This document shows positions 9,135 to 27,988 of a DNA stretch of 64,000 nt, piece by piece. The position numbers were made by a program, and so were the translations under genes. The notes under the pieces are model-generated. The model did not search any database, was not told the DNA's origin, and saw only the letters and a list, made by a program, of their open reading frames with translations. This DNA comes from Desulfatiglandales bacterium (GTDB lineage Bacteria > Desulfobacterota > DSM-4660 > Desulfatiglandales > Desulfatiglandaceae), in contig OY759599.1 of the NCBI GenBank assembly GCA_963662465.1, forward strand, positions 3,328,001-3,392,000. Direction: 5' to 3'. Each line of letters opens with the position of its first letter. The first letter of the stretch is position 1.

Positions 9135-9767
9135 ATGCGACGTGATGTCGCGTAAGTAGCAGTTTTATATATTGATATAAACCATATAACAAAACCCTGT
9201 TTTCTGCAACAGGCATTCTACCGGGACATGCGTCCGGAGTAATCCGGGGGTGTGAAGCTCTCGGGACAATGAAGCCCGCGGAATTTTCCGGAAGAGGGAA
9301 CCGTGAGGGGACCTCAACTCTGCAAGCATCATGCGGTGAGGGAGCTAGAATTGAGCAGTACGGTTAACACATGTGAATCGCTGCAGCGTCGTCACGAGAA
9401 CAAGCCTAAGATGCTGAAAGGCTTGGACCAAAAGGTACGTGGCCAGGAACGGAGGCTGCGAACTCCTCCGTCGCAGATGTCGTGCCACCGGCGTAGGGGC
9501 GGAACCTAACCTGCTCGGGTACTTACGCGGAACATGGTAAGCCCGTAATCCTCCCCACGGGGAAAGCGAACCGCAAGGTGAGCCCATGGGGTTGCGGGTA
9601 AAAGATGTCAGAAAAAGCGAATGCCTTGTTGTAATGATGGGGATACGGATTGATGGTAATCACCGACATGATCCGGCTCGAAAGAGAGCAGACTTCTGAC
9701 CGGTGTTCCATTGCGAGATAATCTGTAGAATCTTCAAACAGGGGAAAGCAGCCAGTGAAACGGGCGA

Positions 9768-11626
9768 ATGACGGTGGCCGTTCTGGCGACTGGTGCACCT
9801 TTGGACGGAACAAACTGGTGGAAATCCATAAACTGGAAAACCGCCGGGGAGCATGTTAGAAGACTGCAGGTGCGTATCGCAAAGGCTGTGAAGGAAAAGC
9901 GATGGGGAAAAGTCAAGGTGATACAGTGGCTTTTGACTCATTCGTTTTATGCCAAGTTGTTGGCTATCAAGCGCGTTACTTCCAACCGGGGTAAACGCAC
10001 ACCGGGAGTGGATAAAGTCATATGGTCCACCCACATTGACAAAATGCAAGCGGTAAACGACCTGCGCCGAAGAGCCTACCGACCCAAACCGCTGCGCCGA
10101 ATTTACATACCCAAGAAAAACGGCAAGAAACGCCCATTGGGCATTCCCACAATGAAGGACAGAGCCATGCAGGCATTGTACAAATTGGCGCTTGATCCGG
10201 TGGCGGAAACCACCGCCGATCCGAACTCTTACGGGTTCAGACCCTATCGGGGATGTGCAGATGCCATCGGTCAGTGTTTTATTTCTCTGGCCAAGCGCTA
10301 CTCACCCGTATGGATTCTGGAGGGAGATATAAAGGCCTGTTTTGATGAAATCAGCCATCAGTGGATACTCGAAAATATCCCGATGGATAAACGGACGCTT
10401 CAGAAATGGCTGAAAGCCGGGTATGTAGAAGGAGGCAAGCTCTATCCGACATACAGAGGAACCCCGCAAGGCGGCTTATGCAAAGCTTTGCATAACCCGC
10501 CTTATGCCAAGTTGCCGATTATGCAAAGTAAACCGCTAAAGCTACCAGATTTCCAACACGTTCACTGAGTTTACTTTGCATAATATCACGGGTACCTCAA
10601 ACTTGAAATCCAATTAAACGATGCAGCATCCTTGGTTTATTTTGGATAAAATGATCTGGTTTTTTCCGACAAACGATTTTGTGAGCTTTTCGCTCAGTCA
10701 TCATTAGCAAAGATTATGCTAAGTAAATCAAAAAGAAACCCTTGAATTACAATGCGTTTTATGGCTTACTTTGCATAATTACTTTCTTTGCATAAGGCGG
10801 GATTATCTCTCCAACATTGGCTAATATGGTCCTGGATGGTCTGGAAGCGGCAGCCAAAAGCACCGCCCCGATAAGAATTCAGGGAAATATACGGTCCAAG
10901 ATAAACGTAATCCGCTACGCTGATGATTTTATCATCACCGGGAATTCCAGAGAGATGCTAAATGAGATCAAGCTGGAAATTGAAGCATTTATGGAGCGAA
11001 GAGGTCTTTCGCTTTCAGCGGAAAAGACGTTGATCACAAGGATAGAAGAAGGATTTGATTTTCTCGGACAAAGTTCACGCAAATACGGAGGAAAACTTTT
11101 GATAAAGCCCTCTCGCAAAAACGTGAAAGCCTTTTTAGGCAATATCCGGAAAACAATCCGAAAGCATGCGGCATCAAGAGCCGACATTCTGATTAAAGTA
11201 CTCAATCCCAAAATCAGGGGGTGGGCCAATTACCACAGGCATGTGGTTTCCGGTAGAACTTTCGGGCTTGTAGATCACCGTATCTACAGCTATATTTGGC
11301 AATGGATGAGGAGGAAACATTCGGGCAAGAGTAAGAGTTGGCTGGTGGATAAATACTGGTCAAAAGGATCTCGCCCGTGGTCCTTTTCAGCGGTGATCAA
11401 GGACGGCTATGCGAAATCCGCCAGAATTGAACTTGAGAAGGCTTACGACGTCAAGATAAAACGCCATGTCAAAATTCGAGGGGATGCGAACCCCTTCAAT
11501 CCGAAATATGAACAATATTTCAGGAAACGATATGCCCAACGCAGTCAGCAGAAGGCAGACAGGCGTAAAGAGCATAAAACGTCACAACCGGGTAGCCCCG
11601 AAAGGGCTTGCCTTTGGAATGCTTGA
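9768..11626 (+). pseudogene. ltrA: Intron RT split by insertion at PQGG
   Basis: Two ORF halves, 9768-10568 and 10817-11626. Confidence 0.92.
10476..10795. mobile_element. Miniature non-coding element, variant 1 (RIT-like ends)
   Basis: GGCGGC|20-bp palindrome|CCCGCC|body with TTATGC(A/C)AAG inverted ends|GGCGGG; absent from copies 1-2. Confidence 0.88.
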
Positions 11627-11761
11627 GCCGTGTGCGTTTAACGGCGCACGCACGGTTCTTAGAGGGCTGGGGGATGGCAACATCCCCTGGCTACTCGACC
11701 AGACCCGCTGGACAGCGGGGGAACTTAACGTCGAAAATTGGTAGAAATAGGTAAAATCGCA

Positions 11762-12937
11762 GTGGAAACGACGATTCAGGGCATCTTTCTTCTTGGCTAT
11801 GCCCTCTATAATCAGACGCATTGTCTTCCGGAACATATTCGTGAGGCGGCTCATCGTCTGATGTCCTGCCGCACGTCCATTCTGGGGAGGCACGTCCAGG
11901 CATGTCCGGATGGTCACTTCCAGAGGGTCTGGTATAACTCGTGTAAACACCGTATGTGCCCACTCTGCGCCTTCACCCAGGTTGAGCGGTGGCTGGCAAA
12001 ACAAAAGGCCCGACTCCTGAGTGCCGAGCATTTCCACGTTATTTTCACCATCTCCGATGAATTGCATGACTTATGGCGGCTGAACCGTAAAGTCATGGCC
12101 AATCTGCTGTTCAAAAGCACGACCGAGACCCTTTCCGAACTCCTTGGAGACCCGAAGCATTTGGGGGCCAAAGTCGGCATCATTGCCTCGTTGCATACCT
12201 GGAGCCGAAAATTGGATTTTCATCCCCATTTGCATTGTTTGGTGACGGCCGGTGGTCTGTCCGCCGGCGAGTGGATTGCTTCATCAAAAACGTTTCTTCT
12301 GCCGTTTGGCATTGTCCGGGCGGTTTTTCGAGGAAAATATCTCCACTATTTGAGAAAAGCCCTTGCCCGTGAAGAACTGATTCTGCCCGAAGGCATGGGA
12401 CCGCAGCAGGCGCGAAACCTGTTTAATAAGTTGGGGCGCCGTAAGAAGTGGAACGTTAAACTCAAGGAGACCTATTCATACGGAGAAGGGGTCTTAATTT
12501 ACCTGGCCCGGTATCTGAGAGGCGGACCGATCTCAAATAAACGCATCTTCCGCATTGAAAACGGAAACGTCACCTTCAATTACGGTCGTGAGCGGATAAG
12601 ACTCATTACTTTGCCGATTCAAACCTTTATCGGCCGCTACCTGCAACACGTTCCCCTGGCGAATTCCATGATGGTGCGTTCATACGGCCTTTACCATCAC
12701 AACGCAAAAAAAGAACTGGCACGCTGCCGGGAAATACTGGGACAACCGGCACTTGAAGATACGGAATTTCTGGACTGGCAGAGTCTGTGGCAGCAGCGAA
12801 GCGACGAGCAACCGGATTGTTGCCCAGTTTGCGGGAAACGTCTTATTACGTTGAAAATAGTTGCACCGGTAAGAAAGTCAAAAAGTCTTCCGAGGTTCAA
12901 TAAGGACCCGGATACGGTATATGCACAGGCAGCGTAA
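11762..12937 (+). CDS. IS91-family (Y2 HUH) transposase with N-terminal Zn-binding domain
   Basis: CRT..LG, NSCKHRMCPLC, HVIFTI, LHTW, HPHLH, YLARY; GTG start by analogy with the second copy. Confidence 0.9.
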   Translation: METTIQGIFLLGYALYNQTHCLPEHIREAAHRLMSCRTSILGRHVQACPDGHFQRVWYNSCKHRMCPLCAFTQVERWLAKQKARLLSAEHFHVIFTISDELHDLWRLNRKVMANLLFKSTTETLSELLGDPKHLGAKVGIIASLHTWSRKLDFHPHLHCLVTAGGLSAGEWIASSKTFLLPFGIVRAVFRGKYLHYLRKALAREELILPEGMGPQQARNLFNKLGRRKKWNVKLKETYSYGEGVLIYLARYLRGGPISNKRIFRIENGNVTFNYGRERIRLITLPIQTFIGRYLQHVPLANSMMVRSYGLYHHNAKKELARCREILGQPALEDTEFLDWQSLWQQRSDEQPDCCPVCGKRLITLKIVAPVRKSKSLPRFNKDPDTVYAQAA

Positions 12938-13178
12938 AACGATAATAAACATGAGCATATTCAAAAAGGCACTTGAATGGCGAGACGTTTGGTAAAGGGA
13001 TAAATAACGCGATATTTCAGGGTTTTTGACGGATCATGCAATTGAAAGCAGGAATTTTATCATCCTTAACCGGCCATGACGGGTTAAAAAAAGGTCACGC
13101 GACAGCTGAGAAGCTCCCTCAATCTCCATAGCCGATCTCCTGCTTCCGGCAAAGTATGTGCTGATGACCCGCAGCTCT

Positions 13179-13309
13179 GTCCAACACCCCGTTGAACTGG
13201 AAAACTGGTATTGGGAGATAAACCGAAATGCGTTGGTTCCTACGAAGTCACCAGCTGGAATGATAATATATTTTTTTGAACCCGTTTTCCAGTTAACTAA
13301 ACGATGGTT
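13179..13309 (+). other. attC site of IS91-like cassette, R' reads GAT
   Basis: GTCCAAC-acccc-GTTGAACTGGAAAAC...GTTTTCCAGTTAAC-taaac-GATGGTT. Confidence 0.75.
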
Positions 13310-13557
13310 GCAGTGGAAACACGCCGTGCTATTCAAATCTACAAAATGCTATAAATGCAGTTGAAAGTGGTGGAACGATCAGGGTAGGTAGGGGCTCTTT
13401 TACTGAGCCATACACCCTAAACAATCAAAAATCCATAAACGTGTATGGCGGATGGAATGAGACCTTTTCAATTCAAAGCCCGAATACAACTTTCCTGGTA
13501 ACGCCAAGAGTATCCAACGGTGGATTGAAGTTCGGGTGCGTCACCTTTAAACCGTAA
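13303..13557 (+). pseudogene. Start-less 3' gene fragment (84 codons)
   Basis: Open frame DGCSGNTPCYSNLQNAINAVESGGTIRV...VYGGWNETF...FKP* begins exactly at the attC crossover position. Confidence 0.55.
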
Positions 13558-13650
13558 GGCTTTTTAGTTGCCGTCGTCTAAAGACGACTTTCGGCCATTA
13601 CATGTAGTTCGTTTGGGCAAAATGAGAAGATTTTGGGAATGTAAATTATA

Positions 13651-13887
13651 ATGAGTGAATTCGAGGTCATTGGAGAGATAGGTGCCGTCGAGTTGATCGC
13701 TAGAGGCCCTGGTATCCGCGACATAACCCGATTGAACCGTCAATACGGAAAGGGGAAATGGAGAAAACTTAAGGGATACGCCCCTGTTCGTTTAAGAACA
13801 GGCCGCGTCCGAATGGCTGAGCTTCATTGGTATGAGGCCCATGGAATTGGCAAAAGAGAAATGAAACGAAAGCGGTATGTGGAATAA
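13651..13887 (+). CDS. Small basic hypothetical protein, putative TA toxin
   Basis: 78 aa, WRKLKG and ELHWYEAHGIG motifs, paired with a small acidic ORF. Confidence 0.7.
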   Translation: MSEFEVIGEIGAVELIARGPGIRDITRLNRQYGKGKWRKLKGYAPVRLRTGRVRMAELHWYEAHGIGKREMKRKRYVE

Positions 13888-13889
13888 TC

Positions 13890-14126
13890 ATGAAAGAATC
13901 CTTCGAAAAACAATATATATATGTCGTGTGTATCGATAACACCGACTATCCGACATCCCTAGAGCGGCACAAGATCTACAAAGTTGTTCCAGACGAGGAT
14001 GCAGCGGCAGATGGCGACATTAGAGTCATTGATGAAAGCGGAGAAGATTACCTCTACTCGTCAGAGAGGTTCGTTCCAATCCGTGTACCTGCTGCTGTAA
14101 GGAAATCGCTGGAGATGCTTGCTTAG
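13890..14126 (+). CDS. Small acidic hypothetical protein, putative TA partner
   Basis: 78 aa, RVIDESGEDYLY motif, 2 bp after the upstream ORF. Confidence 0.7.
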   Translation: MKESFEKQYIYVVCIDNTDYPTSLERHKIYKVVPDEDAAADGDIRVIDESGEDYLYSSERFVPIRVPAAVRKSLEMLA

Positions 14127-14732
14127 AGAAAGGCCGGGCTTGCTAATTTGGCCGATCAGGTGCGCCAATGCTAAGTTCAGGTTTTCGCACTGGGGTAGCT
14201 TTGGCGTGGATTATCCGGTTCTATGCCTTTGTTACGTCTGTATGCGTAGGGATTCGAATGTACAAAGGAATAAGTCGTCATGTTTTATGAAAGTGAGGCC
14301 TAATTACTCCGTGATCCCGTGTAGTTAAAAACTTCGAGATCGGTTATGGGGATAGGGAGGAGCCTCACAGCTCCCCCCTCCCACACCACCGTACATACGG
14401 GTCCGTATACGGCGATTCGGCTGGTCAGAGCAGGCAAGGATAAAACAGGTTCCGCCCTACCGGGTTTTCCAGAATGCGACGTTATCGACCTTTCAGCTAC
14501 TGCTGCATTAGACCAATAAGTACACGTTCTTTGACAACCACAACCATTTACCCCTGCCATTCGGCAGGTGGCACCGTTCGGGCCTTCACCGGAGTGAGGC
14601 CTCCCTTTATTCAGGGCTCGTTTCTCCGGCTTAATATGCCCTCTGCTGACTCCCGTTACGCGGTGGGCTCCCCTTTCGGTTCGCTCACTCGTAGTTTCCG
14701 CAATCTGTCGAGTCCATTTGTTTGTGTTTCCC

Positions 14733-16738
14733 CGCATAAGTCTAAATGTTGTGGGGTTGTATAACCCATCAAAATTAAAAGGCGTTTTCGGTAAACAAGA
14801 ATGCATTATGAACCTTCATAACTTGAATCCAAGGTAAGTCAAATGTTTGGCCGTTGGCTAATTCAAAGGGACTTTTATGAGCATTTTTTGCGCCAGGTAA
14901 AAATGGGACAAAATTCCTGATAGTCGCATGTGCTCGAAAGAAAAGACTTGCCCATTTCTTATCTCGAAAACTCTCAATTTGTTTTAGTTTACGTTTGATT
15001 CCTTTTAAATAATTGTCAACAATGGAGGTTGTTTGTTTTATCCCATTTCTATTTTTATGAGAGGTATAATGAGTGGCATTTTCTTTTAATTCTACTACCC
15101 TCTTTTTTAGTAATGGATGAGAAAATGCATCGTCATCTAATGCCTTAATCTTTACTTCCAAGTTAACTTTAGATGTGGATGTTTTCAAAACTTTCTTAAA
15201 TTTTTTATAAAGCTTGTCCACTTCTTGGTCGGTACATTTTGATTCTTTTTGATATTTTGATAGTGCATCGTAGAAGTTTTTCAAACAATGACGATGGCAA
15301 TATCCGACCCAAATGTTATGGAATACGGTCTTGATAGCATTGGTTGAGGCTTTCCACTTATCTTTTGTTACACCAAGGATTTTGAAGTCGATTTTTTGCA
15401 AAAAATCCTCAAATGAACCGCACAGGTTTTCTTCATCAACATGATCAACATAATCGGAGTGCCATACTAATAAATTTTCAGGATCGACCATAACTACAGA
15501 ATAAGTTCTTAAATTTGGTTCTTTTTCAAAGCCCTCATCTTCCTGTAGATATCCTGAGCCTTTCACTCCTGCTCTTGTTAGTATTGTTGCAGGATGAAGT
15601 GTTCCTGCCCATCGATTCCAGTTCAAGATGGTCTGTTTGCTTTTGACACTTTTTTTGCCAATAATTTTAAGGCTTTCGATGGCTCCTTGAATGCTCGCAT
15701 TAAAACGGTACATATTCCGAAATACGTGCCCAATAATCTCTATACCAAAATTCTTTTCCCTTGGGAGAAAGCTGGGAACAAGAGAGAACTTTTGTTTGCA
15801 CTTCCGGCATTGTATCATGCGGATTGGGAATGTCTGTTGTTCTCCTCCATTCATTATTGTTTTTCGAGGATTCCCGCGGAAACCAGATAAAATATATTCT
15901 TTAGGTCCAGAACATGTTGAATTATGGCCTGTGTGGTGATCATATTTATCGAGTTTATCTAATACTTCAATGCGAAACTTCTTACTATCTTTTACGAGAG
16001 CATGATAGCTTTCGGTGTTATTATAAGGAAAGATATATGTTTGATTTCCTCGTTTAGAAACAAGGTCTTCCATTTTCTTTTTTACATTTTCGATTATGGA
16101 TTTATCAAAAGATTTTAACATCCCTATCTCAAATGCAATACTGATTGTACTATCACGACTTTTTACATTATTCAATTTTTTAGTAATATTACTTATCATT
16201 GAACGAATTGAATAAAAGATTCTAATTTTCTGTCGATCCCGTTGTGTTTTTGGAATGCTTTTTTTCCCTTTTATTGGCTTACAAATATCCCATAATTGAC
16301 TTATTAACCTACCAAGTTCATCAATAAGAGCAGACAATGTTACATAAAAATATTGCAATGATTGAAACATCTCCCTTTCATTGATCCATGATCTGATGGC
16401 ATTAATGCATTTCTCAATTTCAAAGAAAATCTCAGGATACTGTTTTGGATCGTAATAACATTGTCTTGCAAGTCTGTTTTGAGCTTTGTCCAACATTGTC
16501 AAAGCTCTCTTAATATTATTAATCATGTGCAACCTCTCTAATTTAACATAGACTGTTGCACTATGATTATGCACACTTATCAAAAAAAGTCCCTAACTTT
16601 TTTCCGCTAAGGCGAATTCAGGAAAAAATGTTTGGCCTCACGAAATGCGCTTTGATTAGGATATTGATTCTGAACCGTTTAACAGATGAAATAATTTCAA
16701 TATGTTAGAGTAAACCCCACAACATTTAGACTTATGCG
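14733..16738 (-). mobile_element. Insertion sequence, IS256/ISH6 (Mutator-like) superfamily
   Basis: Perfect 26-bp TIR CGCATAAGTCTAAATGTTGTGGGGTT; 8-bp TSD TGTTTCCC (14725-14732, 16739-16746); empty site visible in intron copy 24351-25176. Confidence 0.9.
14775..16583 (-). CDS. Putative transposase (602 aa)
   Basis: Only long ORF between the TIRs; QEDEG, TKD, CHRH (CxxH) and TTSIVDN motifs; start codon uncertain. Confidence 0.8.
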   Translation of the reverse strand: MISVHNHSATVYVKLERLHMINNIKRALTMLDKAQNRLARQCYYDPKQYPEIFFEIEKCINAIRSWINEREMFQSLQYFYVTLSALIDELGRLISQLWDICKPIKGKKSIPKTQRDRQKIRIFYSIRSMISNITKKLNNVKSRDSTISIAFEIGMLKSFDKSIIENVKKKMEDLVSKRGNQTYIFPYNNTESYHALVKDSKKFRIEVLDKLDKYDHHTGHNSTCSGPKEYILSGFRGNPRKTIMNGGEQQTFPIRMIQCRKCKQKFSLVPSFLPREKNFGIEIIGHVFRNMYRFNASIQGAIESLKIIGKKSVKSKQTILNWNRWAGTLHPATILTRAGVKGSGYLQEDEGFEKEPNLRTYSVVMVDPENLLVWHSDYVDHVDEENLCGSFEDFLQKIDFKILGVTKDKWKASTNAIKTVFHNIWVGYCHRHCLKNFYDALSKYQKESKCTDQEVDKLYKKFKKVLKTSTSKVNLEVKIKALDDDAFSHPLLKKRVVELKENATHYTSHKNRNGIKQTTSIVDNYLKGIKRKLKQIESFRDKKWASLFFRAHATIRNFVPFLPGAKNAHKSPFELANGQTFDLPWIQVMKVHNAFLFTENAF

Positions 16739-17186
16739 TGTTTCCCGACCAATAGGCCGGGCTCGTCAGGGCTATGACTCGAAATGTTCCTGACGCCAGG
16801 GTTTTGTTTTACCGGTTTTCCCTTATATTCCGGTAGATTTCAGTTGCAGTTCCCTACGAGACGCAACGGGCCTCCCGGGGTAAACACGTGTCTTTCCGCA
16901 CACGAGCGCCGACAACGTGCCTGGCCTATAGTAGTTAGAGGACTTTGTTCTGTGTTGCGGACTCGTCCCACCAGACCCGCCTCACTCGATTTCTGTTCGT
17001 CGCCCCGTGCGTTTGCGGTGCCCTGCCGCAGCAAGGCCACTGCCTCTCCAGGCCCGTTACCGGGTACCCGGTTGTGATACCGCTACACCCTTCGCCACTA
17101 CCTGGCTGGGTCTGGGACTTGCGTAAAATATCGGAAGCATGGTACATTGCGCGCACCCTTAAGAACACGTGCCGTGCCCGGCACAC

Positions 17187-17270
17187 AACCAAACGCTCCA
17201 CCAGACGCCTGACAGTCCTGCGGTCCTGGCAGGGGCCGAAGGAGGAGGCGCTGGTGAGCTTGTCGTTGGC
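17187..17270 (+). other. attC site flanked by introns at both ends
   Basis: (GGTT 14342-14345)|AAC-caaac-GCTCCACCAGACGCC...GGCGCTGGTGAGC-ttgtc-GTTGGC. Confidence 0.9.
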
Positions 17271-17903
17271 ATGCGACGTGATGTCGCGTAAGTAGCTGTT
17301 TTATATATTGATATAAACCATATAACAAAACCCTGTTTTCTGCAACAGGCATTCTACCGGGACATGCGTCCGGAGTAATCCGGGGGTGTGAAGCTCTCGG
17401 GACAATGAAGCCCGCGGAATTTTCCGGAAGAGGGAACCGTGAGGGGACCTCAACTCTGCAAGCATCATGCGGTGAGGGAGCTAGAATTGAGCAGTACGGT
17501 TAACACATGTGAATCGCTGCAGCGTCGTCACGAGAACAAGCCTAAGATGCTGAAAGGCTTGGACCAAAAGGTACGTGGCCAGGAACGGAGGCTGCGAACT
17601 CCTCCGTCGCAGATGTCGTGCCACCGGCGTAGGGGCGGAACCTAACCTGCTCGGGTACTTACGCGGAACATGGTAAGCCCGTAACCCTCCCCACGGGGAA
17701 AGCGAACCGCAAGGTGAGCCCATGGGGTTGCGGGTAAAGGATGTCAGAAAAAGCGAATGCCTCGTTGTAATGATGGGGATACGGATTGATGGTAATCACC
17801 GACATGATCCGGCTCGAAAGAGAGCAGACTTCTGACCGGTGTTCCATTGCGAGATAATCTGTAGAATCTTCAAACAGGGGAAAGCAGCCAGTGAAACGGG
17901 CGA

Positions 17904-19761
17904 ATGACGGTGGCCGTTTTGGCGACTGGTGCACCTTTGGACGGAACAAACTGGTGGAAATCCATAAACTGGAAAACCGCCGGGGAGCATGTTAGAAGAC
18001 TGCAGGTGCGTATCGCAAAGGCTGTGAAGGAAAAGCGATGGGGAAAAGTCAAGGTGATACAGTGGCTTTTGACTCATTCGTTTTATGCCAAGTTGTTGGC
18101 TATCAAGCGCGTTACTTCCAACCGGGGTAAACGCACACCGGGAGTGGATAAAGTCATATGGTCCACCCACATTGACAAAATGCAAGCGGTAAACGACCTG
18201 CGCCGAAGAGCCTACCGACCCAAACCGCTGCGCCGAATTTACATACCCAAGAAAAACGGCAAGAAACGCCCATTGGGCATTCCCACAATGAAGGACAGAG
18301 CCATGCAGGCATTGTACAAATTGGCGCTTGATCCGGTGGCGGAAACCACCGCCGATCCGAACTCTTACGGGTTCAGACCCTATCGGGGATGTGCGGATGC
18401 CATCGGTCAGTGTTTTATTTCTCTGGCCAAGCGCTACTCACCCGTATCGATTCTGGAGGGAGATATAAAGGCCTGTTTTGATGAAATCAGCCATCAATGG
18501 ATGCTCGAAAATATCCCGATGGATAAACGGACGCTTCAGAAATGGCTGAAAGCCGGGTATGTAGAAGGAGGCAAGCTCTATCCGACATACAGAGGAACCC
18601 CGCAAAGCGGGTTATGCAAAGCTTTGCATAACCCGCCTTATGCAAAGAAAGTAATTATGCAAAGTAAACCGTAAAAGCCATAATAATTCAAGAGATTCTT
18701 GTTGATTTGCTTAGCATAATCTCCACTTATGGTGAATGAGAAAAAGTTCAAAAAATCATTAGACAAAACAAAGGAGCTATTTTTATCCAAAACAAACGAA
18801 GAATGCTGCATCATTTACTTGGCTTTCAAGTCTGAAGTAGTCGTGATATTATGCAAAGTAAATTCAGTGCATATGCTTGAAATATTGCACCTTAACTGAT
18901 TTACTTTGCATAATCGTTAACTTTGCATAAGGCGGGATTATCTCTCCAACATTGGCTAATATGGTCCTGGATGGTCTGGAAGCGGCAGCCAAAAGCACCG
19001 CCCCGATAAGAATTCAGGGAAATATACGATCCAAAATAAACGTAATCCGCTACGCTGATGATTTTATCATCACCGGGAATTCCAGAGAGATGCTAAATGA
19101 GATCAAGCTGGAAATTGAAGCATTTATGGAGCGAAGAGGTCTTTCGCTTTCAGCGGAAAAGACGTTGATCACAAGGATAGAAGAAGGATTTGATTTTCTC
19201 GGACAAAGTTCACGCAAATACGGAGGAAAACTTTTGATAAAGCCCTCTCGCAAAAACGTGAAAGCCTTTTTAGGCAATATCCGGAAAACAATCCGAAAGC
19301 ATGCGGCATCAAGAGCCGACATTCTGATTAAAGTACTCAATCCCAAAATCAGGGGGTGGGCCAATTACCACAGGCATGTGGTTTCCGGTAGAACTTTCGG
19401 GCTTGTAGATCACCGTATCTACAGCTATATTTGGCAATGGATGAGGAGGAAACATTCGGGCAAGAGTAAGAGTTGGCTGGTGGATAAATACTGGTCAAAA
19501 GGATCTCGCCCGTGGTCCTTTTCAGCGGTGATCAAGGACGGCTATGCGAAATCCGCCAGAATTGAACTTGAGAAGGCTTACGACGTCAAGATAAAACGCC
19601 ATGTCAAAATTCGAGGGGATGCGAACCCCTTCGATCCGAAATATGAACAATATTTCAGGAAACGATATGCCCAACGCAGTCAGCAGAAGGCAGACAGGCG
19701 TAAAGAGCATAAAACGTCACAACCGGGTAGCCCCGAAAGGGCTTGCCTTTGGAATGCTTGA
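17904..19761 (+). pseudogene. ltrA: Intron RT split by insertion
   Basis: Halves 17904-18674 and 18952-19761. Confidence 0.92.
18612..18930. mobile_element. Miniature non-coding element, variant 2 (body inverted relative to variant 1)
   Basis: AGCGGG|palindrome|CCCGCC|body|GGCGGG. Confidence 0.88.
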
Positions 19762-19979
19762 GCCGTGTGCGTTTAACGGCGCACGCACGGTTCTTAGAGG
19801 GCTGGGGGATGGCAACATCCCCTGGCTACTCGACTTGATGAGCTTCTGCAAAGGAGAAGGAAGATGTTAAGCGTGTATTTGCCGGTAATTGGAAACATCA
19901 ATAAGAGGCCTCGTATCTCGGACTTCGCTTCAGCGCGTTAGCCACTTGAAAATCAGCCTGTAAAGGAGAATGCTTAGCT

Positions 19980-20225
19980 ATGCCAGTAGTCTTCAGGTAC
20001 AAGGGATATCGTTTTTTCTTTTTCTCAAATGAAGGAGATCCACCTGAACCGATTCACATACATGTGCGACGTGGTGAGGCTACAGCAAAGTTCTGGATGT
20101 CACCTCAGATCAGCCTTGCGGAATCATACAATATGAACTCTTCTGAACTCCGCGAACTCATGCGAGTGGCTGAAAAAAACAGGAAACTCATTGAAAGGTA
20201 TTGGGATGAACACTTTAGCATTTAA
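19980..20225 (+). CDS. DUF4160-family protein (TA-like)
   Basis: MPVVFRYKGYRFFFFSNE..EPIHIHV..AKFW. Confidence 0.85.
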   Translation: MPVVFRYKGYRFFFFSNEGDPPEPIHIHVRRGEATAKFWMSPQISLAESYNMNSSELRELMRVAEKNRKLIERYWDEHFSI

Positions 20226-20475
20226 ACCACGTGCCAAAAAAGTGACTTTTGACTCGGACAACATGTGGGTAGCACTCACCGATGGACGTCAGCTCGGTGT
20301 TCCTATTGCTTACTTCCCACGACTCCTCAATGCAACTGAAGCTCAAAGAGATGATTACATCATCAGCGGCGGAGGTAGTGGCCTGCATTGGGAGGAACTC
20401 GACGAGGACATTTCTGTTAAAGGCCTTTTATTGGGAATTGGTGATAGGACTCGACCTGACAGAAAGGCGGCATGA
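20206..20475 (+). CDS. DUF2442-family protein (TA-like partner)
   Basis: LTDGRQLGVPIAYFPRL..GLHWEELDEDISV. Confidence 0.85.
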   Translation: MNTLAFKPRAKKVTFDSDNMWVALTDGRQLGVPIAYFPRLLNATEAQRDDYIISGGGSGLHWEELDEDISVKGLLLGIGDRTRPDRKAA

Positions 20476-20494
20476 CTGCTTTCAGCCACTTCCT

Positions 20495-20624
20495 TGCTAA
20501 CAGTAACTACAGCAGACAGTCAGAGCGCTGGCGTAGTTGGCAGATAAGCGTGATTCGAAATTGAAATTGATCTTTTTATTCCAAGATGCGCGAGCACTGG
20601 TCGTTGCTCAATATGGCGTTAATC
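20495..20624 (+). other. attC site (degenerate)
   Basis: R'' TGCTAAC nearly complements the upstream R' GTTAGCC (19937-19943); imperfect arms; R' GTTAATC. Confidence 0.6.
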
Positions 20625-20869
20625 GCAACCCGTCATTAGCATTTTTGAAGGGGAAAGAAACTGTTCAGCGCTCATTCGCCGATAACGGGGATAACGAATA
20701 AGGAAGAAGATCATTTTTTAAAGGCGAGTTGTGCAATGTCCATTTATTTCTATCATATTCCGCTGAATGTGCCAATAGCCATCGAATGTGAAAAAAATAA
20801 GTGATATGCTTATAGCTAGGTCCAAGCTTTTTTGTCATATAATTCCGTGGGGTTAAGAAAATCTATGAG

Positions 20870-20954
20870 CGCCAACCAAACGCTCCAGCGGACCCCTGAA
20901 AGTCTGTCGGTTCTAGCGGGGACCGGTGGAGGGGCCGCTGAACTTGTCGTTCGC
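20870..20954 (+). other. attC site
   Basis: CGCCAAC-caaac-GCTCCAGCGGACCCC...GGGGCCGCTGAAC-ttgtc-GTTCGC. Confidence 0.88.
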
Positions 20955-21587
20955 GTGCGACGTGATGTCGCGTAAGTAGCTGTTTTATATATTGATATAA
21001 ACCATACAACAAAACCCTGTTTTCTGCAACAGGTATTCTACCGGGACATGCGTCCGGAGTAATCCGGGGGTGTGAAGCTCTCGGGACAATGAAGCCCGCG
21101 GAATTTTCCGGAAGAGGGAACCGTGAGGGGACCTCAACTCTGCAAGCATCATGCGGTGAGGGAGCTAGAATTGAGCAGTACGGTTAACACATGTGAATCG
21201 CTGCAGCGTCGTCACGAGAACAAGCCTAAGATGCTGAAAGGCTTGGACCAAAAGGTACGTGGCCAGGAACGGAGGCTGCGAACTCCTCCGTCGCAGATGT
21301 CGTGCCACCGGCGTAGGGGCGGAACCTAACCTGCTCGGGTACTTACGCGGAACATGGTAAGCCCGTAATCCTCCCCACGGGGAAAGCGAACCGCAAGGTG
21401 AGCCCATGGGGTTGCGGGTAGAGGATGTCAGAAAAAGCGAATGCTCCGTTGTAATGATGGGGATACGGATTGATGGTAATCACCGACATGATCCGGCTCG
21501 AAAGAGAGCAGACTTCTGACCGGTGTTCCATTGCGAGATAATCTGTAGAATCTTCAAACAGGGGAAAGCAGCCAGTGAAACGGGCGA

Positions 21588-23445
21588 ATGACGGTGGCCG
21601 TTCTGGCGACTGGTGCACCTTTGGACGGAACAAACTGGTGGAAATCCATAAACTGGAAAACCGCCGGGGAGCATGTTAGAAGACTGCAGGTGCGTATCGC
21701 AAAGGCTGTGAAGGAAAAGCGATGGGGAAAAGTCAAGGTGATACAGTGGCTTTTGACTCATTCGTTTTATGCCAAGTTGTTGGCTATCAAGCGCGTTACT
21801 TCCAACCGGGGTAAACGCACACCGGGAGTGGATAAAGTCATATGGTCCACCCACATTGACAAAATGCAAACGGTAAACGACCTGCGCCGAAGAGCCTACC
21901 GACCCAAACCGCTGCGCCGAATTTACATACCCAAGAAAAACGGCAAGAAACGCCCATTGGGCATTCCCACAATGAAGGACAGAGCCATGCAGGCATTGTA
22001 CAAATTGGCGCTTGATCCGGTAGCGGAAACCACCGCCGATCCGAACTCTTACGGGTTCAGACCCTATCGGGGATGTGCGGATGCCATCGGTCAGTGTTTT
22101 ATTTCTCTGGCCAAGCGCTACTCACCCGTATGGATTCTGGAGGGAGATATAAAGGCCTGTTTTGATGAAATCAGCCATCAATGGATGCTCGAAAATATCC
22201 CGATGGATAAACGGACGCTTCAGAAATGGCTGAAAGCCGGGTATGTAGAAGGAGGCAAGCTCTATCCGACATACAGAGGAACCCCGCAAGGCGGGTTATG
22301 CAAAGCTTTGCATAACCCGCCTTATGCAAAGAAAGTAATTATGCAAAGTAAACCGTAAAAGCCATAATAATTCAAGAGATTCTTGTTGATTTGCTTAGCA
22401 TAATCTCCACTTATGGTGAATGAGAAAAAGTTCAAAAAATCATTAGACAAAACAAAGGAGCTATTTTTATCCAAAACAAACGAAGAATGCTGCATCATTT
22501 ACTTGGCTTTCAAGTCTGAAGTAGTCGTGATATTATGCAAAGTAAATTCAGTGCATATGCTTGAAATATTGCACCTTAACTGATTTACTTTGCATAATCG
22601 TTAACTTTGCATAAGGCGGGATTATCTCTCCAACATTGGCTAATATGGTCCTGGATGGTCTGGAAGCGGCAGCCAAAAGCACCGCCCCGATAAGAATTCA
22701 GGGAAATATACGGTCCAAGATAAACGTAATCCGCTACGCTGATGATTTTATCATCACCGGGAATTCCAGAGAGATGCTAAATGAGATCAAGCTGGAAATT
22801 GAAGCATTTATGGAGCGAAGAGGTCTTTCGCTTTCAGCGGAAAAGACGTTGATCACAAGGATAGAAGAAGGATTTGATTTTCTCGGACAAAGTTCACGCA
22901 AATACGGAGGAAAACTTTTGATAAAGCCCTCTCGCAAAAACGTGAAAGCCTTTTTAGGCAATATCCGGAAAACAATCCGAAAGCATGCGGCATCAAGAGC
23001 CGACATTCTGATTAAAGTACTCAATCCCAAAATCAGGGGGTGGGCCAATTACCACAGGCATGTGGTTTCCGGTAGAACTTTCGGGCTTGTAGATCACCGT
23101 ATCTACAGCTATATTTGGCAATGGATGAGGAGGAAACATTCGGGCAAGAGTAAGAGTTGGCTGGTGGATAAATACTGGTCAAAAGGATCTCGCCCGTGGT
23201 CCTTTTCAGCGGTGATCAAGGACGGCTATGCGAAATCCGCCAGAATTGAACTTGAGAAGGCTTACGACGTCAAGATAAAACGCCATGTCAAAATTCGAGG
23301 GGATGCGAACCCCTTCGATCCGAAATATGAACAATATTTCAGGAAACGATATGCCCAACGCAGTCAGCAGAAGGCAGACAGGCGTAAAGAGCATAAAACG
23401 TCACAACCGGGTAGCCCCGAAAGGGCTTGCCTTTGGAATGCTTGA
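21588..23445 (+). pseudogene. ltrA: Intron RT split by insertion
   Basis: Halves 21588-22358 and 22636-23445. Confidence 0.92.
22296..22614. mobile_element. Miniature non-coding element, variant 2
   Basis: GGCGGG|TTATGCAAAGCTTTGCATAA|CCCGCC|body|GGCGGG. Confidence 0.88.
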
Positions 23446-23607
23446 GCCGTGTGCGTTTAACGGCGCACGCACGGTTCTTAGAGGGCTGGGGGATGGTGAC
23501 ATCCCCGGCTACTCGACCCAGAATATTGGCTACAACTGGATCGCAGTGGCGACCAAATAAGTACACAGTGAAGTGTATAAAGATCCATATCCGAGGGCCG
23601 AAAATAG

Positions 23608-23988
23608 ATGGTAAATATTGACAAACATATTTTGTATTGGAAAAGCGGCGCAGAAGAAGATTTTCAAGTGGCAGATCAGCTTATCAGGTCCGGCAAAACC
23701 CGTCACGGACTTTTCTTTCTTCATCTAACACTTGAGAAAATTCTCAAAGCCCATGTTTGCCGCAACAGTAGGGATATCGCTCCAAGACTACACAATCTTG
23801 CAAGACTTTCAGAATTGACTGGAATTGTCTTCAAACAGGAAGATTCGGATTTTCTTGCAGAAATGAATCCGTTCAACATTGAGGGACGTTATCCCGAAAT
23901 GTGGGGACCTGTTCCGTCCCGCGAGGAAGCGGACACGCTACTGCTAAAATCAGGAGGGATATTCGAATGGCTCAAGAATCAATTATAA
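23608..23988 (+). CDS. HEPN domain protein
   Basis: FFLHLTLEKILKA, PRLHNL, EGRYP. Confidence 0.88.
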   Translation: MVNIDKHILYWKSGAEEDFQVADQLIRSGKTRHGLFFLHLTLEKILKAHVCRNSRDIAPRLHNLARLSELTGIVFKQEDSDFLAEMNPFNIEGRYPEMWGPVPSREEADTLLLKSGGIFEWLKNQL

Positions 23989-24290
23989 AATCAATCAGGA
24001 AATATCTGAACGAACTTCAACGGCTTGGCGTCCCAATCAAATTCGGCATTTTGTTCGGTTCACACGCTCGCAAAGACACAAACAAATGGAGTGACATAGA
24101 TTTGTTAGTAGTGTCACCTCGATATGATGAATCTTACAACCGAGAAGATATCAATATGCTTTGGCGGACCGCAGCCCGCACAGACAACCGGATAGAACCC
24201 GTCCCCGTAGGTCTTCACCGGTGGGAAACGGACGACGAAAGTACAATCATCGAAGCAGCACGACGCGAGGGAATACTGGTAAACGCATAA
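23967..24290 (+). CDS. Minimal nucleotidyltransferase (MNT) antitoxin
   Basis: LFGSHAR...SDIDLLVVS. Confidence 0.88.
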   Translation: MAQESIIKSIRKYLNELQRLGVPIKFGILFGSHARKDTNKWSDIDLLVVSPRYDESYNREDINMLWRTAARTDNRIEPVPVGLHRWETDDESTIIEAARREGILVNA

Positions 24291-24350
24291 GATATGACAA
24301 AAAACCACATGCTATTGAAAATAAGCATCCAAACTTACCCTATAGCGGTT

Positions 24351-25176
24351 ATAGGGATAGGGAGGAGCCTCACAGCTCCCCCCTCCCACCACCGTACATA
24401 CGGGTCCGTATACGGCGATTCGGCTGGTCAGAGCAGGCAAGGATAAAACAGGTTCCGCCCTACCGGGTTTTCCAGAATGCGACGTTATCGACCTTTCAGC
24501 TACTGCTGCATTAGACCAATAAGTACACGTTCTTTGACAACCACAACCATTTACCCCTGCCATTCGGCAGGTGGCACCGTTCGGGCCTTCACCGGAGTGA
24601 GGCCTCCCTTTATTCAGGGCTCGTTTCTCCGGCTTAATATGCCCTCTGCTGACTCCCGTTACGCGGTGGGCTCCCCTTTCGGTTCGCTCACTCGTAGTTT
24701 CCGCAATCTGTCGAGTCCATTTGTTTGTGTTTCCCGACCAATAGGCCGGGCTCGTCAGGGCTATGACTCGAAATGTTCCTGACGCCAGGGTTTTGTTTTA
24801 CCGGTTTTCCCTTATATTCCGGTAGATTTCAGTTGCAGTTCCCTACGAGACGCAACGGGCCTCCCGGGGTAAACACGTGTCTTTCCGCACACGAGCGCCG
24901 ACAACGTGCCTGGCCTATAGTAGTTAGAGGACTTTGTTCTGTGTTGCGGACTCGTCCCACCAGACCCGCCTCACTCGATTTCTGTTCGTCGCCCCGTGCG
25001 TTCGCGGTACCCTGCCGAAGCAAGGTCACTGCCTTCCCAGGCACCGTTACCGAATACCCGGTTGTGATACCGCTACACCCTTCGCCACTACCTGGCTGGG
25101 TCTGGGACTTGCGTAACATATCGGAAGCATGATATATTACGCGCACCCTTAAGAACACGTGCCGTGCCCGGCACAC
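24351..25176 (-). mobile_element. ORF-less group IIC-attC intron copy 2
   Basis: 826-nt uninterrupted copy; splits R'' GGTT|AAC. Confidence 0.88.
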
Positions 25177-25257
25177 AACCAAACGCTCCACCAGACGCCT
25201 GATAGTCCGGCGGTTCCGGCGAGGGCTGGCAGAGGCGCTGGTGAGCTTACCGTTGGC
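25177..25257 (+). other. attC site flanked by introns at both ends
   Basis: AAC-caaac-GCTCCACCAGACGCC...GGCGCTGGTGAGC-ttacc-GTTGGC. Confidence 0.9.
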
Positions 25258-26082
25258 TTGCGACACGGAGTCGCATAGTTTAAGTGTATTCATGTAGTTA
25301 CATGTATTACCCGGTATGTCCCTACCGGACCCTACGCAGGCATGCTGCCGTTGCGCTGATGACGGGGTGTGAAGCCCTGCGGACAACGTACCGAATTGGG
25401 TTTGAATGGCGACAGGAGAACCCCTCCGGGAATCCTCCCCGGTTAAGGGCCAGGGTCAGATGATATGGTGAAGGTATCTGAATGTCTTTAAGCGTCGATC
25501 ACAAGCGAAGGGCCTACGAGGATTAACAGGTCTTATGCCGCTGCCCAGTGTCAGCGGATGTGGTCAGGTTGCAGGTCTGCTAACTGCCTGCACGGAACTG
25601 TTGTACCACCGGCGTAGAGGGCGCACCTAAGTCATCCATTGGATCAACTATGTGGAACGTGGAAACCCGGTCCCGCCGCCCCTTTTGGGGGCAGGCTAAC
25701 CGTAAGGCATGCTGTTGGCGGGCCGGAGTAGGAGGCTGAAAAAAGCGAATGCCGGGCTGTAATGGTCCGGATACCGGGTGAAACATTCCCGGCTCCGTAA
25801 GGAGGCAAACGTTCAGCGTGGTGCCCGATCACGTGAACACCGGAGGAATCAGATGAAAGCGGGGAAAGCAGCCAGTGAAACGGGCGAATGACGGCCCTTG
25901 AGGCTGGTGCGCCCCGCGCGCCTTTGGCTACTCTGACAGCCGGCTTGTAACGTGAAGTAGATGCAAATCCGCGGGAATCCCAACCAGGGAAACCTTTTCG
26001 GGGGCTTGAGCCACGTGAGGTGAAAGTCTCATGCGTGGTTCTGAGGGGGGAATGGGACTGAGAGGTCCCTGACCTACCCGAT
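25258..26082 (+). mobile_element. ORF-less group II intron family B copy 2
   Basis: 5' TTGCG, domain V as in copy 1, ends CTACCCGAT. Confidence 0.88.
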
Positions 26083-26143
26083 CAGACCCGCTGGACAGCG
26101 GGGGAACTAACGTCGTAACTCCCAGTAAATAAAGGAGGTTTCA

Positions 26144-27319
26144 GTGGAAGCGACGATTCAGAGCATCTTTCTTATAGGCTATGCCCTCTATGATCAGACC
26201 CATCTTCTTCCGGAACATATTCGTGAAGCGGCACACCGTCTGATGAGTTGCCGCACATCTGCTCTGGGGGGTCACGTGCAGGCGTGCCCGGACGGTCACT
26301 TCAAAAGGCACTGGTACAACTCGTGTAAACATCGCATGTGCCCCCTCTGCGCTTTTACCCAGGTGAAACGTTGGCTGGCAAAACAAAAGGCTCGCATCTT
26401 AAACACCGAACATTTCCATGTTATTTTCACCATCTCCGATGAATTGCACGACTTATGGCGGTTGAACCGCAAGCTTATGGGCAATCTGCTGTTCAAAAGC
26501 GCCACTGAAACCCTTTCCGAACTCCTTGGAGATCCGAAGCATTTGGGGGGCAAAGTCGGCATCATCGCCTCACTGCATACCTGGAGCCGAAAACTGGACT
26601 TTCATCCGCATCTGCATTGTCTGGTAACGGCCGGTGGGCTGATCGCCGGCGAGTGGATCGCTTCATCAAAAAAATTCCTTTTGCCCTTTGGCATCGTCCG
26701 GGCGGTATTTCGAGGCAAGTACCTCTACTATTTGAGAAAAGCCCTGGATCGGAACGAACTGGTTCTGCCCGAGGGCATGGGGCCTCAGCAGGCCCGGAAC
26801 CTCTTCAATAAACTGGGCCGCCGCAAAAAATGGAACGTCAAGCTCAAAGAGACCTATTCATACGGTGAAGGCGTGTTGATTTACCTGGCGCGTTACTTGA
26901 GAGGCGGAGCAATTTCAAACAAACGCATCTACAGCATTGAAAACGGGAACGTGACCTTCAATTACGGTCGTGAGAAGGTAAAACTCATCTCCCTGCCGAT
27001 TCAAACCTTTATCAGCCGCTATCTGCAACACGTCCCCCTAGCAAATACCGTGATGGTGCGTTCATACGAACTCTATCATCACAGCTCAAAAGAAGAACTG
27101 GCACTCTGCCGGGAAATACTGGGTCAACCGCCTCTTGAAGATACGGAATTTCTGGATTGGCAGACCTTGTGGCAACAGCGAAGCGATGAGCAACCGGACC
27201 GTTGCCCTGTTTGTGGGAAGTGCCTCATAACTCTGGAAATATTGACGCCGGTCAAAAAGTTAAGAGAGCTTCCGAGGTTCAATAAAGTCCATGACATGAT
27301 ACATGCCCAAGCAGCATAG
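26144..27319 (+). CDS. IS91-family (Y2 HUH) transposase
   Basis: RBS AAGGAGG; same motifs as, and clearly paralogous to, 11762-12937. Confidence 0.9.
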   Translation: MEATIQSIFLIGYALYDQTHLLPEHIREAAHRLMSCRTSALGGHVQACPDGHFKRHWYNSCKHRMCPLCAFTQVKRWLAKQKARILNTEHFHVIFTISDELHDLWRLNRKLMGNLLFKSATETLSELLGDPKHLGGKVGIIASLHTWSRKLDFHPHLHCLVTAGGLIAGEWIASSKKFLLPFGIVRAVFRGKYLYYLRKALDRNELVLPEGMGPQQARNLFNKLGRRKKWNVKLKETYSYGEGVLIYLARYLRGGAISNKRIYSIENGNVTFNYGREKVKLISLPIQTFISRYLQHVPLANTVMVRSYELYHHSSKEELALCREILGQPPLEDTEFLDWQTLWQQRSDEQPDRCPVCGKCLITLEILTPVKKLRELPRFNKVHDMIHAQAA

Positions 27320-27342
27320 ATTAAGCATGCGCAGTCGAAAGG

Positions 27343-27446
27343 CAGGGCAAATTTGTTCTATTTGTAAACCTTTGATATCAAAACCTTATGAAGGACACAT
27401 CAATTCAAACAAATCAATGGATTAGCGTTAGAACAAATTCACCGTG
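27343..27446. mobile_element. 104-bp MITE
   Basis: Imperfect 18-bp TIR CAGGGCAAATTTGTTCTA / TAGAACAAATTCACCGTG; 10-bp TSD AGTCGAAAGG. Confidence 0.8.
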
Positions 27447-27859
27447 AGTCGAAAGGTCTTTAGTCGAGTGAAAGGTTTTTGATGTCGAGGTGTTTGGTAA
27501 ACTGCCTAATAACACGATATTTTGGCATTTTTAGCGGGACCATGCGATCAAAAAAAGAAATTTTATCATTTTTAACTGGCTTAGACCGGAATGATGGGTC
27601 AAAAAGAAGTCATGCGGTAGCTGCAAAGATCGTTTAATCTCCATAGCGGCGATCCTGCTCCCATTAACCTATGTGCGTGTGACTCGCGGGTCTGTCCAAC
27701 CAGCCGTTGAACGAAGCTTCGCAAACGCCAAAGCGGTAAAAAGTTTAGTGCTAACAAACCAGTTAAGTTGTTGCGGTTATTGGCATTATGTTGCTAAATC
27801 CAAAAAAAACAGCGGAAAGCAATCTCTAACAGCAAGTAGTGTGCCAAAACGACAACCAT

Positions 27860-27988
27860 GTTCAACCAATGGTTCAAGTCTGATATTTTTCGTCCCAAAA
27901 ATTGCATTTGAGATTTTGTCGCCGTTTTTTACGTTGGGAGGGCAGCAATTTTTGGGCCGAAAAATTACAGCTTAACTCAATGTTATGC
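27860..27988 (+). other. attC site (last visible)
   Basis: GTTCAAC-caatg-GTTCAAG..CCCAAAAATTGC...GCAATTTTTGGG..CTTAAC-tcaat-GTTATGC. Confidence 0.8.

What the first reader, a model, noticed from the sequence alone, without database searches (positions are those of the whole stretch)
11700..27712. IS91-family HUH transposases packaged as attC cassettes
Seen: two diverged paralogs (11762-12937 and 26144-27319). After removing the intron, each starts GTTGGC|CAGACCCGCTGGACAGCGGGGGAAC, which includes the hairpin CCGCTG-GA-CAGCGG. They share a conserved ~200-bp 3' region containing AATCTCCATAGC and end in TCTGTCCAAC-N5-GTTGAAC (R''-L''). In copy 2, GCGGGTCTGTCCAAC is almost the exact reverse complement of the cassette start. 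Inference: a rolling-circle transposase unit mobilised by IntI, or an IS91-like element that mimics or targets attC. Both chemistries act on single-stranded hairpins.
Basis: partly seen in the sequence, partly recalled or inferred. Interest (0 to 1): 0.7.

Follow-up and report, generated by a model that had tools for sequence, protein, structure and literature searches.

The report
Rolling-circle transposase travelling as integron cassette
An IS91-type rolling-circle transposase gene is built as a complete integron gene cassette, 17 times in this genome and in relatives from many bacterial phyla, and it likely copies itself into single-stranded circles that the integron's own integrase would then insert.

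Summary
Observation confirmed. The genome holds 17 copies of this IS91-type (HUH, two-tyrosine) gene. All start at an integron G|TT crossover, 15 end in a full attC, 4 of 7 attI-like sites start with it, and one attI carries 8 identical tandem copies; none is inserted in IS91 fashion. Relatives at 39-87% identity share the build (attC in 72 of 79 testable loci, shuffles 62 of 1600). They lack the recombinase gene of their sister group and form one clade with gcISKpn22, a clinical cassette that is named but, in the papers I could search, not explained. They keep an oriIS-like motif and a terIS-like hairpin, so the cassette circle reads as an IS91 ter-ori junction split by attC. IntI most likely inserts it; the HUH enzyme likely amplifies bottom-strand circles (inferred, 0.55). 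No circles or excess depth were seen in contigs, and close relatives hold single copies. The scan noted this before on other DNA: the tandem in this genome, and recombinase-bearing relatives elsewhere. New variant of a known kind.

The parts
9050..9135 (+). attC of the preceding cassette; crossover G at 9129, first cassette bases GTTGGC 9129-9134
9135..11699 (+). sense-strand group II intron inserted six bases into copy 1; its reverse transcriptase ORF is interrupted by a small inverted-repeat element
   Evidence: Rfam RF02012 and RF00029
11705..11718 (+). copy 1 5' hairpin next to the cassette start; terIS-like (inferred)
   Evidence: a hairpin at this place in 27 of 33 clade representatives against 778 of 6600 shuffles
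11762..12937 (+). copy 1 IS91-type HUH gene, 391 aa; H156-L-H158, Y247 and Y251 invariant
13121..13132 (+). copy 1 conserved motif TnnAAWnYCCATAG; oriIS-like (inferred from its match to IS91, IS801-like and IS1294-like ends)
13179..13309 (+). copy 1 attC: R'' 13179-13185, L'' 13191-13198, L' 13291-13297, crossover G 13303 (followed by AT instead of TT)
   Evidence: same attC with G|TT in nine other copies
25173..25258 (+). attC of the cassette preceding copy 2; crossover G at 25252
25258..26082 (+). ORF-less sense-strand group II intron inserted six bases into copy 2
26088..26101 (+). copy 2 5' hairpin; terIS-like (inferred)
26144..27319 (+). copy 2 IS91-type HUH gene, 391 aa, 86% identical to copy 1, dN/dS 0.11
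27343..27446 (.). 105-bp MITE with a 10-bp target duplication, a later insertion in copy 2
27636..27647 (+). copy 2 oriIS-like motif
27686..27712 (+). copy 2 right end: 15-bp inverted repeat of the cassette start, R'' 27694-27700 and L'' 27706-27712; the rest of its attC is missing
27706..27988 (+). unrelated ORF-less cassette that starts inside copy 2's L'' box and ends in its own attC (27860-27988)

Best explanation
The unit is an integron gene cassette that carries an intact IS91-type HUH gene between a G|TT start and its own attC; IntI likely inserts it, and the HUH enzyme likely copies it into single-stranded bottom-strand circles that IntI would insert again. Shown by sequence: cassette ends, attC, position at attI and attC, no recombinase gene of its own, conserved catalytic residues, and retained oriIS-like and terIS-like signals on the same strand as in IS91. 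Inferred: in the circle the terIS-like hairpin with its GTYC tetranucleotide is separated from the oriIS-like motif only by attC and 22-71 nt; the enzyme would bind the motif, nick at or near the R box and displace the bottom strand, from an excised circle or straight from the chromosome. That strand is the one IntI recombines. Insertion at attI would place the gene under the cassette promoter and feed the cycle, which would give tandem copies.
For: 17 of 17 genome copies start at a G|TT crossover (4 attI, 13 attC; two after removing an intron); 15 of 16 full-length copies end in a complete attC; no orphan ends. 3 of 3 full-length intI genes, and 4 of 7 attI-like sites, have it as first cassette; two platforms differ at 68 of 1227 nt while their cassettes differ at 0 of 1604. 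Intron-free, non-HUH cassette starts after the 74 attC hits occur 1-3 times. Clade: start motif in 100 of 116 loci with enough flank; attC geometry in 72 of 79 against 62 of 1600 shuffles; no tyrosine recombinase gene adjoining the HUH gene in the 150 loci counted. Motif within 100 nt of R'' in 61 of 85 loci against 1 of 845 ORF windows; its first ten positions fit the oriIS ends of IS91, IS801-like and IS1294-like elements. dN/dS about 0.11; HUH and both tyrosines invariant in 52 of 52 sequences; fold like Rep nucleases and relaxases (best Z 9.9, rmsd 4.6, 174 aligned). IS91 inserts only its bottom single-stranded circle (PMC13181058); IntI recombines only the attC bottom strand (PMC11023631). 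The sister group pairs the same ends and motif with its own recombinase, of the IntI-like subgroup (10.1101/542381).
Against: No circle junction for the non-tandem subtypes, and the single-copy first cassette sits at single-copy depth (42 and 34 against flanks of 39 and 46) in contigs of runs X1 and X2; contigs drop rare forms. Only 2 of 40 relatives hold a close copy, one each, so the 17-copy load is peculiar to this genome. IntI alone duplicates cassettes into first position (PMC8024014). The bias to array heads outside this genome is modest: another attC within 1.4 kb upstream in 24 of 66 loci, downstream in 22 of 37 (Fisher p 0.038; paired 4 against 7, p 0.55; false positives 19 of 120). 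No conserved tetranucleotide follows the oriIS-like motif, its distance to R'' varies (22-71 nt), and no nick site was identified. 51 of 78 clade loci with 1.4 kb or more upstream show no intI upstream within the DNA held.
Confidence: 0.55

Rival explanations
1. It is an ordinary cassette moved and duplicated by IntI alone (copy-and-paste insertion at attI, then homologous amplification). The HUH gene is kept for a benefit to the host, or acts on other DNA, and does not copy the cassette.
For: IntI duplicates cassettes into first position without help (PMC8024014). Most other genomes show one or two copies. No circles or excess depth seen.
Against: A non-coding oriIS-like motif and a 5' hairpin are kept in cis across 39-87% protein divergence, which a trans-acting cargo gene would not need. 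Other intron-free cassette starts in this genome have 1-3 copies. Five diverged subtypes occur, three of them at attI sites.
Confidence: 0.22
2. The HUH enzyme both excises and inserts the unit at G|TT sites by itself; the attC-like hairpin is its own recognition structure and IntI is dispensable (mimicry).
For: Both ends carry GTYC, the tetranucleotide cut by IS801, IS1294 and IS1294b (PMC13181058). About 42 of 66 foreign loci are not preceded by an attC by eye, and many have no intI nearby.
Against: Every junction in this genome is the IntI crossover, in cassette orientation, at attI or attC, and none of 17 is elsewhere, whereas the genome's classical IS91 family is scattered at CTTG-like targets. 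The right end keeps L boxes with the bulged base and R spacing typical of attC. Many of the non-attC flanks resemble attI sites seen beside intI in other loci (by eye).
Confidence: 0.13
3. The eight-copy tandem is an assembly artefact and the rest are passive relics of past IS91 insertions into attC sites.
For: The eight units are identical. The runs that hold the region are probably the source sample, so they are not independent.
Against: The tandem junction is in contigs of X1 and X2, and one shared position has depth 453 against about 41 for single copy in X1, as expected for about ten further copies; X2 does not show this at that position. Each subtype carries the same attC at different sites, and the gene is under purifying selection.
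Confidence: 0.05

Closest known systems
gcISKpn22, fourth cassette of class 1 integron In722 (PMC6262049 and PMC12772345, passages read)
   Same: IS91-family gene with no recombinase, between a G|TT start with hairpin and its own attC; related motif upstream of R''; 37% identical; falls in the same clade, on a long branch.
   Different: Only a catalogue name in the passages read, with no mechanism or family described. It is a single last-position copy, found in 11 plasmid records, all 100% identical. Here there are 17 copies, five subtypes, attI-first positions and a tandem of eight.
[quoted passage not shown]
   Same: Sister clade. Same left end (GAAC, three bases, hairpin), same CCATAG motif, right end GTTC followed by a hairpin; in 5 of 7 elements with both ends read, the 3-6 flanking bases are complementary (by eye).
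   Different: They encode their own recombinase, 27-34% identical to IntI, 23-200 nt upstream. The cassette clade has none and keeps a canonical G|TT and attC. That ISShvi3 belongs to this two-gene group is recalled, not tested.
Canonical IS91 family: IS91, IS801, IS1294, IS1294b (PMC13181058, introduction and passages read)
   Same: HUH two-tyrosine enzyme with zinc-binding domain; ori-like motif downstream of the gene; hairpin plus GTTC or GTCC at the upstream end; bottom-strand logic.
   Different: 22-28% protein identity. Canonical elements end a few bases after the ori motif at a CTTG or GTTC target and have no terminal inverted repeats. These units run on through R'' and a whole attC and sit only at integron crossovers.
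Other elements that exploit attC: class C-attC group II introns, sense IIB introns such as UHB.I2 (PMC7923331, passages read), IS1111-attC elements (mentioned in PMC9229058)
   Same: Use integron arrays as a niche; the introns share this array.
   Different: They insert into or beside someone else's attC with their own enzyme. This unit brings its own attC and occupies attI.

Membership tests
Integron gene cassette | Starts at a G|TT crossover after attI or attC | tested here: met
   17 of 17 genome copies; start motif in 100 of 116 clade loci with at least 200 nt upstream
Integron gene cassette | R'' complementary to the cassette's own start | tested here: met
   14-15 of 15 bases in genome copies; covariation 234 against 174 +/- 7 in 28 representatives
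Integron gene cassette | Own attC with L boxes, bulged base and R spacing | tested here: met
   15 of 16 full-length genome copies, window copy 2 being cut at L''; 72 of 79 clade loci against 62 of 1600 shuffles
Integron gene cassette | Found in arrays with intI and attI | tested here: met
   First cassette at 3 of 3 full-length intI genes; intI upstream in 27 of 78 clade loci
Integron gene cassette | Excised and inserted by IntI | not testable with these tools
   Needs an experiment; no circle junction seen in contigs
Integron gene cassette | No promoter of its own | tested here: inconclusive
   Only weak 9-of-12 consensus matches, one starting at the cassette's first bases
IS91 family (canonical) | HUH motif, two catalytic tyrosines, zinc-binding domain | tested here: met
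   PF04986 and PF14319 above cut-off; H156, H158, Y247, Y251 invariant in 52 of 52; HUH fold
IS91 family (canonical) | oriIS motif at the end downstream of the gene | tested here: inconclusive
   TnnAAWnYCC core lines up with IS91, IS801-like and IS1294-like ends, then ATAG instead of TAT; it lies 22-71 nt inside R'', not at the end
IS91 family (canonical) | terIS: subterminal palindrome next to a GTTC, GTCC or CTCG cut site | tested here: met
   Hairpin in 27 of 33 representatives beside bottom-strand GTYC or GTGC; definition from PMC13181058; cutting there is not shown
IS91 family (canonical) | Inserts next to a CTTG or GTTC target, element ending just after oriIS | tested here: not met
   0 of 17 genome copies; no conserved bases after the motif in 32 representatives
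IS91 family (canonical) | No terminal inverted repeats | tested here: not met
   Ends are inverted repeats of 7-15 bp
IS91 family (canonical) | Rolling-circle activity with single-stranded circles | not testable with these tools
   Only contigs were available for this genome
Two-gene IS91 plus tyrosine recombinase elements | Recombinase gene directly upstream of the HUH gene | tested here: not met
   Absent in all 17 genome copies and in the 150 loci counted as clade; L014 (39%, with recombinase) was left out of that count and groups with the two-gene elements
Two-gene IS91 plus tyrosine recombinase elements | Same end motifs (GAAC plus hairpin; CCATAG; GTTC plus hairpin) | tested here: met

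The most novel reading that the evidence does not exclude
A self-replicating integron cassette: an ancient, multi-phylum clade of HUH elements that replicate as single-stranded circles and use IntI as their integrase, taking over attI. With the sister elements that carry their own IntI-like recombinase and fold an attC-like end, it would show how the integron's single-strand recombination system is tied to rolling-circle elements, and it would give the recombinase of two-gene IS91 elements a role.
Probability: 0.4. Interest if true: 0.85.

Novelty: new variant of a known kind. Interest (0 to 1): 0.66.

Why it matters
Integron cassettes are regarded as passive cargo (own knowledge). A cassette that makes its own single-stranded copies would be a parasite of the integron that competes for the expression site, and its enzyme could in principle copy neighbouring cassettes if termination fails, as it does in IS91 (PMC13181058). 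One member is already in a clinical class 1 integron. The finding also offers a testable role for the IntI-like recombinases of two-gene IS91 elements and a lead on the shared origin of attC-type folded sites and rolling-circle elements.

Tried and rejected
A first fold-based attC test was too lenient (80 of 134 control sites passed) and was replaced by a geometric test. The first strict version missed attCs with a longer L'-R' spacer (39 of 79, shuffles 28 of 1600); the widened version gave 72 of 79 against 62 of 1600. A genome-wide attC census by pattern was noisy; the BLAST-seeded census (74 hits) is a lower bound, and cassettes that start with an intron could not be scored for copy number. 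Three attempts to score the upstream neighbour gave different counts of adjacent attC (41 of 98, 9 of 63, 18 of 66); I report and call the head-of-array bias suggestive only. The idea that the element runs GAAC to GAAC like IS1294, with its end inside L'', was rejected as the main route: L'' varies across the clade, one genome copy reads GTTCAAC there, and only window copy 2 ends at L''; a 7-bp match to the next cassette's start explains that case equally well. The idea that elements end at CCATAG was rejected: no copy or orphan end does so. A joint skipping 1628 nt in X1 and X2 looks like an empty site but rests on 25 letters and fits a paralogous attC-intron junction, so it was not used. No solved structure is related by sequence. 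The careful tree did not finish in two runs; support values are SH-aLRT from the quick search, and since the two groups are sisters the tree does not show whether the recombinase was lost or gained. No complex prediction was sent. Nine literature searches found no description of a family or mechanism; ISfinder, TnCentral, INTEGRALL, most subscription papers and all supplements were not seen and may hold one.
Full report
Observation. The two ORFs are 391-aa proteins, 86% identical, with Y2_Tnp and Zn_Tnp_IS91 domains above Pfam's cut-offs. Each follows a sense-strand group II intron that sits six bases past the crossover of an attC. Two corrections: the usual start is GTTGGA, and only copy 1 has a whole attC. 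Copy 2 is cut at L'', where an unrelated ORF-less cassette begins.

The genome. The window lies in a single 8.16-Mb contig with 17 copies of the unit. All 17 start at a G|TT crossover: 4 at attI-like sites and 13 at attC, two of these after removing the intron. Sixteen reach R'' and 15 carry a full attC of about 130 nt; one copy is broken inside the gene. Each subtype keeps the same attC wherever it sits, so the attC travels with the gene. The three full-length intI genes each have the unit as first cassette; of 7 attI-like sites found with two attI queries, 4 do. One attI is followed by eight identical copies at a period of 1609 nt. Two integron platforms differ at 68 of 1227 nt while their first cassettes differ at 0 of 1604, which points to recent separate insertions or conversion. 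Among 74 attC hits, the other intron-free cassette starts occur 1-3 times; those starting with an intron could not be scored. No orphan end and no insertion away from a crossover was found, whereas a second, classical IS91-like family in the same genome is scattered at CTTG-like targets. dN/dS between subtypes is about 0.11.

The clade. A 52-sequence alignment fetched 73 genome loci and 80 metagenome loci, the best of 186 and of at least 588. With the phylum search, 150 loci at 39% identity or more were counted, near-duplicates included; L014 (two-gene type), L010 and L036 (repeats) were left out, as were partial matches. None has a recombinase gene adjoining the HUH gene. A cassette start lies upstream in 100 of 116 loci with enough flank, and attC geometry follows R'' in 72 of 79 testable loci against 62 of 1600 shuffles. 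Hosts span Thermodesulfobacteriota, Nitrospirota, Acidobacteriota, Pseudomonadota, Bacillota, Spirochaetota and others. Left and right ends change together (234 complementary positions against 174 +/- 7; 28 representatives; kin not independent). In a quick maximum-likelihood tree of 73 representatives of 161 proteins, the 52 recombinase-less rows form one branch (SH-aLRT 96), sister to two-gene elements with a tyrosine recombinase (98), with canonical IS91, IS801-like and IS1294-like proteins apart. Sampling was by likeness to the query, and the tree does not give the direction of change.

Retained IS91 signals. HUH and both tyrosines are invariant in 52 of 52 sequences. The model (pLDDT 83) is closest to parvovirus Rep nucleases and relaxases (best Z 9.9, rmsd 4.6, 174 aligned). 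A motif TnnAAWnYCCATAG lies 22-71 nt before R''; anchored on R'' alone it is found in 61 of 85 loci against 1 of 845 ORF windows, and many of the 24 misses are one-base variants. Its first ten positions fit the oriIS ends of IS91, IS801-like and IS1294-like elements read from plasmid records, on the same side and strand. At the start, a hairpin follows the first ten bases in 27 of 33 representatives (shuffles 778 of 6600); on the bottom strand it precedes GTYC, the layout given for terIS of IS801, IS1294 and IS1294b (PMC13181058, introduction read). The two-gene sister elements have the same ends and motif, and a hairpin after their right end. Their recombinases belong to the IntI-like subgroup (10.1101/542381, passages). 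So the cassette circle is an IS91-like ter-ori junction with attC in between. This reading is inference from sequence.

Mechanism. Shown: cassette build, integron positions, intact enzyme, conserved cis motifs. From the literature: IS91 inserts only its bottom single-stranded circle (PMC13181058) and IntI recombines only the folded bottom strand of attC (PMC11023631, passages). Inferred: IntI inserts the unit (about 0.85), and the HUH enzyme supplies extra bottom-strand circles, from an excised circle or from the chromosome (whole model 0.55). Insertion at attI would express the gene and repeat the cycle. The nick site is unknown.

Against this reading. Contigs of four runs laid on a 9-kb stretch with intI and two subtypes show the single-copy first cassette at single-copy depth and no circle junction; they do contain the tandem junction, and one shared position in X1 has the depth expected for about ten further copies. 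Contigs drop rare forms, and X1 and X2 are probably the source sample. Only 2 of 40 relatives hold a close copy, one each. IntI alone can duplicate a cassette into first position (PMC8024014, passages). Outside this genome the bias to array heads is modest: 24 of 66 loci have another attC within 1.4 kb upstream and 22 of 37 downstream (Fisher p 0.038; paired test p 0.55; false positives 19 of 120). An intI was found upstream in 27 of 78 loci, and in about 14 of these the cassette looks first by eye.

What is known. An earlier scan note (e1-7817244) pointed to gcISKpn22 in integron In722. I checked it: an IS91-family gene as fourth cassette, 37% identical, with the same ends and a related motif, inside the clade on a long branch, present in 11 identical plasmid records. 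The two papers that mention it give the name only (PMC6262049, PMC12772345; passages). [quoted passage not shown] Nine searches of the held library found no account of a family or of its mechanism. ISfinder, TnCentral, INTEGRALL, most subscription journals and supplements were not seen. Scan notes on this genome's tandem and on two-gene relatives in other genomes exist; they are not independent evidence.

Verdict. The unit meets the sequence definition of an integron cassette and fails two defining features of canonical IS91 (target and ends), while keeping its enzyme and cis signals. It is a new variant of a known kind: one member is catalogued, but I found neither the clade nor the ter-attC-ori layout described. 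Interest 0.66; the self-replicating-cassette reading has probability about 0.4 and would deserve 0.85.

Noticed in passing
window 14733-16738: A 2.0-kb element with about 25-bp terminal inverted repeats and a 7-bp duplication, encoding a 602-aa protein with only a weak DUF6431 hit, sits inside a minus-strand group II intron; 24 hits longer than 1 kb in the genome at over 99% identity.
   Followed up: partly
window about 10470-10800, 18610-18935, 22295-22620: A roughly 325-bp inverted-repeat element interrupts the reverse transcriptase ORF of three sense introns at the same position; 7 hits in the genome.
   Followed up: partly
window 9129-9134 and 25252-25257: Both intron-bearing copies read GTTGGC where all 15 intron-free copies read GTTGGA. 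Recombination between intron copies, which would bring in another cassette's first six bases, could explain it; untested.
   Followed up: no
window 27343-27446: 105-bp MITE with 9-10-bp target duplications; 13 further near-identical copies in the genome.
   Followed up: partly
window 1531-6806: Three sense-strand group II introns lie head to tail after one attC, each starting right at the 3' end of the previous one.
   Followed up: no
G000:C1 380867 and at least 10 further sites: A second, classical IS91-like family is scattered over the genome; its ori-like end lies upstream of the gene after a CTTG-like target, and a hairpin plus GTTC lies downstream, the reverse of IS91's layout.
   Followed up: partly
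L043, about 3700-3780: A clade cassette sits right after the folded right end of a two-gene-type IS91 element, as if that end had served as attC.
   Followed up: no
L142, L161, L165, L167, L169, L176 (left flanks): In one subclade the left flank often reads CCGATAA (or a one-base variant) plus 5-6 bases before the start, like one arm of a dif or attI core (resemblance recalled), with no attC upstream.
   Followed up: no
G000:C1 3747477, 3423312, 3494537: attI-like sites with no intI beside them; the first starts with the HUH cassette.
   Followed up: partly
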